Shown here piece after piece: positions 8,721 through 8,799 of a DNA stretch of 64,000 nucleotides. Position 1 is the first letter of the stretch. The number at the start of each line of letters is the position of its first letter. A model generated the notes under the pieces. It was given only the letters and a program-made list of their open reading frames with translations. It made no database searches and was not told where the DNA came from. Source of the DNA: the human T2T-CHM13v2.0 reference genome, Homo sapiens. A program made the translations under genes and the position numbers. The DNA is taken from NCBI RefSeq assembly GCF_009914755.1, contig NC_060931.1; one strand, given 5' to 3'.

Positions 8721-8799
8721 CACAGTAGATCCCTGCTCCTTCCAGTGAGGTGCCTCAATGGAGGAACTTGGAAAGAAAACTTCTGTGATTGTTCCACAG

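What the first reader, a model, noticed from the sequence alone, without database searches (positions are those of the whole stretch)
8746..8799. Hidden EGF-like module: an upstream in-frame acceptor restores a domain the reference MUC17 splice cuts in half
Seen: a good acceptor (atccctgctccttccag|, AG 8744-8745) lies exactly 54 nt upstream of the acceptor at 8799, in the same phase, with no stops. Using it gives [25 protein letters not shown], a C-x10-C-x-C-x7-C copy of the next module [23 protein letters not shown] (C-x10-C-x-C-x8-C). From recall, reference human MUC17 reads TTTCFGDGCQ, while MUC3A and rodent Muc17 carry two such modules here (CxNGG.W....C.C..GF.GDRC). Inference: human MUC17 either has an under-annotated two-module isoform or lost the module via a cryptic acceptor. 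The one-residue-shorter last loop and extra AGs at 8724-8728 fit decay. The Cys-rich regions are the parts linked to wound-healing activity of these mucins.
Basis: partly seen in the sequence, partly recalled or inferred. Interest (0 to 1): 0.8.

Follow-up and report, generated by a model that had tools for sequence, protein, structure and literature searches.

The report
Bypassed ancestral half of MUC17 EGF module
The 54 bases just upstream of human MUC17 exon 4 are the still-intact front half of an EGF-like module that most other mammals keep, and the human reference transcript skips it by splicing at a newer site inside the module.

Summary
An AG at 8744-8745, behind a pyrimidine tract, lies 54 nt upstream of the annotated acceptor. 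It is in the same phase and no stop intervenes.

The 54 nt are not a chance open frame. A profile built only from the first half of module 1 of 43 non-catarrhine MUC17 models hits 8751-8795 with E 8.7e-5. The only other significant hit in the six-frame window is module 2.

- 60 of 92 MUC17-like database models carry module 1 in whole or part.
- The TCCAG acceptor is invariant in an alignment with three paralogous exons of the same human cluster. The AG of the reference acceptor occurs in MUC17 only.

So 8744-8745 is the ancestral acceptor. The reference site at 8798-8799 is a derived acceptor inside module 1.

Whether humans still use the upstream site could not be tested, because no RNA data were available. 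Module 1 in human and Old World monkeys has a last loop one residue shorter than in 43 of 43 other models. Several other lineages have one-module models. My best reading is a bypassed exon part that gives at most a minor isoform (about 0.65). A substantial unannotated isoform remains possible (about 0.25).

The parts
4630..4641 (+). End of the large mucin exon 3 (last base 4635) and its donor gtaagt. One base (T) is carried into the next codon.
   Evidence: hub annotation table.
8730..8745 (+). Ancestral acceptor: pyrimidine tract tccctgctccttcc plus AG at 8744-8745.
   Evidence: TCCAG is invariant in the DNA alignment with three paralogous human exons. In MUC17 and in L002/L003 the AG lies 5 nt before the first Cys codon. 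The heuristic score is 4.62, within the range of 12 annotated acceptors.
8746..8799 (+). Bypassed 54 nt: the junction codon remainder, one Arg codon, and the first 16 codons of EGF-like module 1 ([16 protein letters not shown]).
   Evidence: Profile hit at 8751-8795, i-E 8.7e-5. 16 of 17 residues are identical to two Old World monkey models, and 15 of 17 with 2 gapped to a third.
8751..8816 (+). Complete module 1 (first Cys codon to fourth Cys codon), split by the reference acceptor.
   Evidence: Full module-1 profile hit at 8751-8807, i-E 2e-5. All invariant columns of alignment A1 are kept: C2, G6, C13, C15, G20, C23.
8780..8799 (+). Derived reference acceptor cttctgtgattgttccacag, with AG at 8798-8799 across the Thr-Gly codons ACA GGC of module 1.
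   Evidence: and the hub table. At this place the paralogues read CCGGGG (L002, L003) and TTGGGC (L004), so they have no AG. Heuristic score 3.95.
8800..8931 (+). Annotated exon 4: the remnant of module 1 (FGDGC), the linker QNTASR, module 2 (8835-8903), and the tail up to the donor at 8932.
   Evidence: hub table.

Best explanation
Positions 8746-8799 are the 5' part of the ancestral MUC17 exon 4.

**Ancestral state.** The exon began at the AG of 8744-8745. It encoded two tandem 4-Cys EGF-like modules between the mucin domain and the SEA domain.

**What changed.** In the lineage leading to humans, an AG arose inside module 1 across the codons ACA GGC at 8798-8799. This became the acceptor used by the reference mRNA.

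**Effect on the protein.**
- Splicing there drops 18 codons, including three of the four cysteines of module 1.
- It creates a new Cys codon across the junction (T|GC).
- It leaves a short remnant (C-FGDG-C plus linker) in front of an intact module 2.

**Present state (inferred, not shown).** The upstream acceptor and the reading frame are still intact. I think they are now used little or not at all, so the segment is a bypassed exon part or at most a minor isoform.
For: **Homology of the hidden segment.**
- Profile hits lie inside the 54 nt.
- HMMER alignments of many unnamed representatives span query residues 2-61 in one stretch.
- 22 of the 85 other representative hits show the strict tandem pattern.

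**Ancestral architecture.**
- 60 of 92 MUC17-like models carry module 1 in whole or part.
- In 12 of the 43 complete cases a Ser/Thr-rich mucin sequence runs to within about two residues of the first Cys. The human upstream junction would give the same arrangement.

**Acceptor homology.**
- TCCAG is invariant across MUC17 and three paralogous human exons. The paralogues lack the reference AG.

**The reference junction is real.**
- P0004 carries it.
- The listing of annotated transcripts in the supplement of PMC11945306 shows four Ensembl MUC17 transcripts. The table gives only lengths and exon counts, with no exon coordinates, so whether any uses the upstream site cannot be read from it.

**Signs of relaxed constraint on module 1.**
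- The last loop is 7 residues in human and Old World monkeys, against 8 in 43 of 43 other models.
- Eight of 92 models run from non-module sequence straight into module 2. They are the human construct, Pongo, two colugos, Echinops, Elephantulus, one Cricetulus model and unnamed P0120.
- The exon in the MUC12 span has a degenerate module 1.

**Structure prediction.**
- Folded as two modules, module 1 scores as well as module 2: pLDDT blocks 83, 77, 72 against 80, 85.
- In the reference-junction protein the remnant scores 58 and module 2 scores 91-94.
Against: **The upstream site does not look disabled.**
- On my crude matrix it scores slightly better than the reference site (4.62 against 3.95). 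It has more pyrimidines, 14 against 12 of 20.
- That matrix uses frequencies recalled from memory, not a validated tool.

**The hidden segment is well kept.**
- It retains every invariant residue.
- 16 of 17 residues are identical to two Old World monkey models. Module 2 shows only 16-18 of 23. This could mean continued selection.
- My rough neutral expectation is about 2.4 amino-acid changes, using a recalled divergence of about 6.5%. That gives P of about 0.3 for at most one change, so neutrality is not rejected either.

**Monkey models use the upstream-type start.**
- Three Old World monkey gene models do so.

**Unseen isoform data.**
- A long-read study lists 10 novel MUC17 isoforms with no coordinates in the text I could read. 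Use of 8746 may already have been seen there.

**No RNA data were available here.**
Confidence: 0.65

Rival explanations
1. Both acceptors are used in human intestine. A two-module, 8-Cys MUC17 isoform, 18 residues longer, is made at a meaningful level and is simply missing from the annotation.
For: - The ancestral acceptor is intact, in phase and free of stops. It scores no worse than the annotated one.
- All invariant residues of module 1 are kept.
- 16 of 17 residues match Old World monkey models, whose predicted proteins start at the upstream-type site.
- AlphaFold2 gives module 1 the same confidence as module 2.
- The 10 novel long-read MUC17 isoforms in PMC11945306 are listed without coordinates.
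Against: - None of the 5 hits in the 108-2000 residue search was a human protein carrying the hidden part. Full-length proteins above 2000 residues were not searched.
- The supplement listing shows four Ensembl MUC17 transcripts but gives no exon coordinates, so it does not settle the point.
- P0004 carries the reference junction.
- The last loop of module 1 has a deletion not seen in 43 of 43 other models.
- Six searches of the paper library found no paper on it.
Confidence: 0.25
2. The reference annotation reflects a minor or artefactual junction, and 8746 is the main acceptor in vivo.
For: On the crude score the upstream site has the better pyrimidine tract. The two-module form is the family norm.
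Against: - The curated RefSeq transcript uses 8800 (hub table).
- An independent database protein, P0004, also carries the reference junction.
- A Pongo model uses the same acceptor (P0005), although it may have been projected from the human annotation.
Confidence: 0.05
3. The in-frame AG and the open frame are coincidence, and the 54 nt were never coding.
For: An in-phase upstream AG with 18 stop-free codons is not rare by chance. This is my own estimate: one third in phase times about 0.4 for staying open.
Against: - Profile hit inside the 54 nt at i-E 8.7e-5, against a next-best E of 0.34.
- TCCAG is invariant with the paralogues.
- Module 1 is present in 60 of 92 models.
Confidence: 0.02

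Closest known systems
Paralogous two-module exons of the same human 7q22 cluster (loci L002 and L003, 154 kb and 96 kb upstream of the window, near where the hub table places the MUC3 genes)
   Same: - 58% identity to P0003 over residues 2-61.
- Same order: acceptor, 5 nt, first Cys codon, module 1, 6-residue linker, module 2, donor after the tail.
- TCCAG is invariant.
   Different: - Module 1 has the usual 8-residue last loop.
- There is no AG at the place of the MUC17 reference acceptor.
- The pyrimidine tract is stronger: heuristic 6.85 and 6.27 against 4.62.
- I had no annotation for these loci, so their exon limits are inferred from sequence.
First cysteine-rich region of non-primate MUC17 (rodent 'Muc3') models, for example P0151, P0149, P0144 and P0098
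   Same: Mucin domain, then two 4-Cys modules with C-x-N-G-G-x-W, C-x-C and G-[FY]-x-G-D-x-C, then SEA.
   Different: The human reference protein starts inside module 1. Human module 1 has a 7-residue last loop and K-E where most have x-G after the Trp.
Tandem EGF repeats (Del-1, Notch-1), and Pfam EGF PF00008 and EGF_TEN PF25024
   Same: - The best structural matches of the two-module model are tandem EGF arrays.
- Weak Pfam EGF and teneurin-EGF hits.
- PF25024 is precomputed for most listed models that carry module 1 and is absent from most that lack it.
   Different: - Each module has four cysteines, not six. The Trp sits where, as I recall, a canonical EGF has its third Cys.
- All Pfam scores are below the curated cut-offs (17.3 against 21.5, and 17.4 against 65).
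- Foldseek E-values are only about 1e-3, with TM 0.41.
Alternative or shifted 3' splice sites that shorten an exon in frame (a general phenomenon, from textbook knowledge)
   Same: Two in-phase AGs 54 nt apart, each with its own pyrimidine tract.
   Different: Here the upstream site can be shown to be the ancestral one, and the shift cuts a folded module. Use of both sites has not been shown.

Membership tests
First cysteine-rich region of MUC3/12/17-type mucins (tandem 4-Cys EGF-like modules) | Module 1 motif C-x-N-G-G-x-W … C-x-C, with 10 residues between the first and second Cys | tested here: met
   P0003 residues 2-15. The loop is 10 residues in 43 of 43 models. The invariant columns are kept.
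First cysteine-rich region of MUC3/12/17-type mucins (tandem 4-Cys EGF-like modules) | Last loop of module 1 is 8 residues long (x-x-G-[FY]-x-G-D-x) | tested here: not met
   Human and Old World monkey models have 7 residues (STGFGDG or STGFGDQ). 43 of 43 other complete models have 8.
First cysteine-rich region of MUC3/12/17-type mucins (tandem 4-Cys EGF-like modules) | Position between the mucin domain and the SEA domain, with the exon starting 5 nt before the first Cys codon | tested here: met
   The acceptor aligns with those of the paralogues. In 12 of 43 complete models a Ser/Thr-rich sequence runs up to module 1.
First cysteine-rich region of MUC3/12/17-type mucins (tandem 4-Cys EGF-like modules) | Module 1 is present in the mature mRNA and protein | not testable with these tools
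   No RNA-seq or proteome data were available. The reference transcript lacks it (hub table; P0004).
Pfam EGF (PF00008) | Score at or above the gathering threshold | tested here: not met
   17.3 bits against a cut-off of 21.5. The best stretch covers module 2 only, at residues 22-50.
Pfam EGF (PF00008) | Six cysteines per domain | tested here: not met
   There are four per module. The reference protein has six in total only by counting the junction Cys and the last Cys of module 1 (P0004).
Expressed alternative 3' splice site | Junction-spanning transcripts for both acceptors | not testable with these tools
   The supplement of PMC11945306 lists MUC17 isoforms by length and exon number only.

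The most novel reading that the evidence does not exclude
Human intestine makes a second MUC17 form through the ancestral acceptor. This form would have an 8-Cys, two-module membrane-proximal region like that of rodents.

The share of the two forms might depend on tissue or condition. If so, human MUC17 would switch between a complete and a truncated first cysteine-rich region. That would matter for the reported wound-healing activity of these regions, and for antibodies raised against this part of the protein.
Probability: 0.25. Interest if true: 0.55.

Novelty: new member of a known kind. Interest (0 to 1): 0.4.

Why it matters
Work on the cysteine-rich regions of this mucin family has used both mouse and human recombinant proteins. 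The review PMC8053700 (passages read) describes such CRD1-L-CRD2 proteins.

If the human reference protein lacks three quarters of module 1 while rodent proteins have it whole, then the human and mouse reagents are not equivalent in this region.

The case is also a clean, datable example of an internal acceptor cutting a folded module while the old exon part stays intact. It gives a concrete, cheap test: counts of two junctions in existing intestinal RNA-seq.

It does not change what is known about how EGF-like modules or splice sites work.

Tried and rejected
- **Ho et al. 2010, Biochim Biophys Acta.** This paper may show a human-mouse alignment of this region. It is not held under its PMC id or PubMed id, so I cannot say whether the 18-residue difference is already in print there.
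- **Paper searches.** Six searches found nothing on an upstream acceptor or a truncated first module in MUC17.
  - PMC1618406 (passages read) concerns EGF modules placed near the transmembrane domain.
  - PMC3056801 (passages read) concerns the bovine mucin gene inventory.
- **Supplement tables of PMC11945306.** I read part 2 of file 2. It lists 10 novel MUC17 long-read isoforms without exon coordinates. Its figures file was not opened.
- **Third homologue search, for longer proteins.** It returned one protein. Full-length primate MUC17 models above 2215 residues could not be reached, so chimpanzee, gorilla, gibbon and macaque full-length models were not seen.
- **Test of selection on the hidden segment.** It is inconclusive: 17 codons, protein level only, and no primate DNA was available.
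- **Foldseek against the PDB.** It gave no match at E ≤ 0.001.
- **Further module upstream.** The in-frame stretch from 8637 to 8745 contains extra cysteines, so I checked it with the module profile. There was no hit.

Full report
**1. The observation**

The large mucin exon ends at 4635, followed by the donor gtaagt. It carries one base (T) into the next codon.

In the last 90 nt of intron 3, the stretch tccctgctccttccag ends with AG at 8744-8745. The annotated acceptor AG is at 8798-8799. The two first-exon bases, 8746 and 8800, are 54 nt apart. They are in the same phase, with no stop between them.

- Reading from the upstream site gives a junction Leu, then Arg, then [22 protein letters not shown]. 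The linker QNTASR and [23 protein letters not shown] follow (P0003).
- Reading from the reference site gives a junction Cys (T|GC) followed by FGDGCQ. A stored database protein with the reference junction shows exactly this (P0004).

The extra AGs at 8724-8725 and 8727-8728 are also there.

**2. Is it more than chance?**

I built a profile from module 1 of 43 MUC17-like models that are not from catarrhine primates. I searched it against all six reading frames of the window (3043 segments, 112,065 residues).

| Profile | Hit | i-E | Next best segment |
|---|---|---|---|
| Full module 1 | 8751-8807 | 2e-5 | E 0.037 |
| Full module 1 | 8835-8903 (module 2) | 3.2e-8 | |
| First 16 positions only | 8751-8795 (inside the 54 nt) | 8.7e-5 (20.0 bits) | E 0.34 |

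The 54 nt therefore encode a true homologue of the front half of module 1.

**3. What relatives look like**

*First homologue search (P0003).* It found 5 proteins among 6 candidates.
- Three Old World monkey models (Semnopithecus, Cercocebus, Piliocolobus) cover 97-98% of the query, including the hidden part.
- The human-derived construct P0004 and a Pongo model P0005 begin at the reference junction.

*Representative library.* It gave 87 hits at E ≤ 0.001. Many align to query residues 2-61 in a single stretch. 22 of the 85 hits other than P0004 and P0005 match a strict tandem-module pattern.

*Named MUC17-like models.* Two further searches gave 92 of them (91, 1). I sorted them and by the alignments:

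| Group | Number of 92 |
|---|---|
| Both modules complete | 43 |
| Model starts inside module 1 | 15 |
| Old World monkey models with both modules and a very short linker | 2 |
| Non-module sequence runs straight into module 2 | 8 |
| Model begins at or after module 2 (uninformative) | 23 |
| Fish model with a single module | 1 |

- The first three groups together give 60 models with module 1 in whole or part.
- The group of 8 comprises P0004, Pongo P0005, two colugos, Echinops, Elephantulus, one Cricetulus model and unnamed P0120.
- In 12 of the 43 complete cases, the 25 residues before module 1 hold at least 10 Ser/Thr. The mucin sequence runs to about two residues before the first Cys, which is what the human upstream junction would give.

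These are mostly computed gene models, so they show that the frame is conserved. They do not prove splicing.

**4. The acceptor is ancestral and the reference site is derived**

The window's own genome holds three related exons in the same cluster.
- L002 and L003 lie 154 kb and 96 kb upstream. Each encodes an intact two-module peptide, 58% identical to P0003.
- L004 lies inside the span that the hub table gives for MUC12.

In L002 and L003 a strong tract ends in ttttccag. The first Cys codon follows after 5 nt. MUC17 shows the same spacing at 8744-8745.

In the four-way DNA alignment, TCCAG is invariant. At the place of the reference acceptor, MUC17 reads ACAGGC. The paralogues read CCGGGG and TTGGGC, so only MUC17 has an AG there.

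**5. Is the upstream site still usable?**

I scored acceptors with a crude weight matrix. Its base frequencies are recalled from memory, so this is a heuristic only.

| Site | Score |
|---|---|
| 8746 (upstream) | 4.62 |
| 8800 (reference) | 3.95 |
| 12 annotated acceptors in the window | -1.16 to 6.98 |
| L002 and L003 acceptors | 6.85 and 6.27 |

Among the 270 AGs of intron 3, 8746 ranks 9th and 8800 ranks 13th. So the upstream site does not look disabled, although it is weaker than its MUC3-type counterparts.

I could not test actual use. The long-read mucin study PMC11945306 lists 4 Ensembl and 10 novel MUC17 isoforms. The supplement table I read (file 2, part 2) gives only lengths and exon counts.

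**6. Signs of decay against signs of constraint**

*For decay*
- The last loop of module 1 has 7 residues in human and in the monkey models. It has 8 in 43 of 43 others.
- Several lineages have one-module models.
- The exon in the MUC12 span has lost the first Cys and the NGG motif in its open frame.

*For constraint*
- Human module 1 keeps every invariant column of a 56-sequence alignment.
- The hidden part is 16 of 17 identical to two monkey models. It is 15 of 17, with 2 gapped, to a third.
- Module 2 is only 16-18 of 23 identical. The rest of the C-terminus is 75-92% identical per 100-residue block.

With only 17 codons and no DNA from other primates, the identity is compatible with neutrality. 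This rests on my rough estimate, P about 0.3, from a recalled divergence of about 6.5%. The test is inconclusive.

**7. Structure**

- *Two-module form.* Folded with the alignment, the human peptide has mean pLDDT 78.6. Module 1 (blocks 83, 77, 72) is about as confident as module 2 (80, 85).
- *Fold matches.* Its best matches are tandem EGF arrays (Del-1, Notch-1). They are weak: E about 1e-3, TM 0.41, and none at E ≤ 0.001.
- *Reference-junction form.* In P0004, residues 41-50 (the remnant of module 1) average pLDDT 58. Module 2 and the SEA domain score 91-98.

The two runs differ in context, so this is only suggestive. It fits a reference protein with a poorly ordered remnant before module 2. 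Pfam sees only weak EGF signals, below the cut-offs.

**8. Reading**

*Shown*
- The 54 nt are the front half of an ancestral module.
- The AG at 8744-8745 is the ancestral acceptor.
- The reference AG is a MUC17-specific novelty.
- The reference junction removes three of the four cysteines of module 1 and adds a junction Cys.

*Inferred*
- The upstream site is now used little or not at all (about 0.65).
- The alternative is a meaningful unannotated isoform (about 0.25).

*Unknown*
- When the shift happened within primates.

**9. Novelty and verdict**

Six searches of the paper library found no description of this. One relevant paper, Ho et al. 2010, was not held.

The case belongs to ordinary kinds: a shifted 3' splice site and a known mucin module. 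It is a new, well-supported instance rather than a new kind of thing.

Interest is moderate. It bears on how far human and rodent reagents for this region are comparable, and existing RNA-seq can settle the open question.

Noticed in passing
L004 (own genome C7:102329122-102329298, inside the MUC12 span of the hub table): The paralogous exon keeps the TCCAG acceptor. A one-base gap follows just after it in the alignment. Its open frame reads AMLSDWTWNGSACFCSLGSHGDCC, so the first Cys and the NGG motif of module 1 are gone. Module 1 therefore seems to be eroding in a second human paralogue.
   Followed up: partly
window 8366-8663: A sense-strand Alu-like element, recognised from its familiar sequence by recall, ends in an A-rich tail about 82 nt upstream of the ancestral acceptor. 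It may have changed the branch-point or enhancer context of that site. This was not tested.
   Followed up: no
P0006, P0007, P0008 against P0003 (window 8817-8903): Module 2 and the linker differ much more between human and Old World monkey models (16-18 of 23 identical) than the hidden part does. The three monkey models also have linker gaps of 4-6 residues, each different. These may be real deletions or small introns invented by gene predictors.
   Followed up: partly
P0051, P0066, P0129, P0162, P0120: Models from colugos, a tenrec, an elephant shrew and an unnamed protein run from mucin-like sequence into module 2 only. In P0120 the stretch before module 2 (GNLHQ) lines up with the human remnant GDGCQ. 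That hints at a similar cut in another lineage.
   Followed up: partly
P0005 (Pongo model): This short model skips the large mucin exon and joins the reference-type acceptor, giving Ser instead of Cys at the junction. Its module 2 has Leu in place of the otherwise nearly invariant Trp.
   Followed up: no
window 8637-8745: The frame of exon 4 stays open upstream to 8637 and contains extra cysteines ([14 protein letters not shown]). The module profile finds nothing there, so this looks like chance.
   Followed up: yes
P0094: This is an unnamed database ORF of 322 residues. It shows the reference exon 4 tail VSSIDI followed by the rest of the MUC17 C-terminus. It starts at the GTG inside exon 4, so it says nothing about which acceptor was used.
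   Followed up: partly
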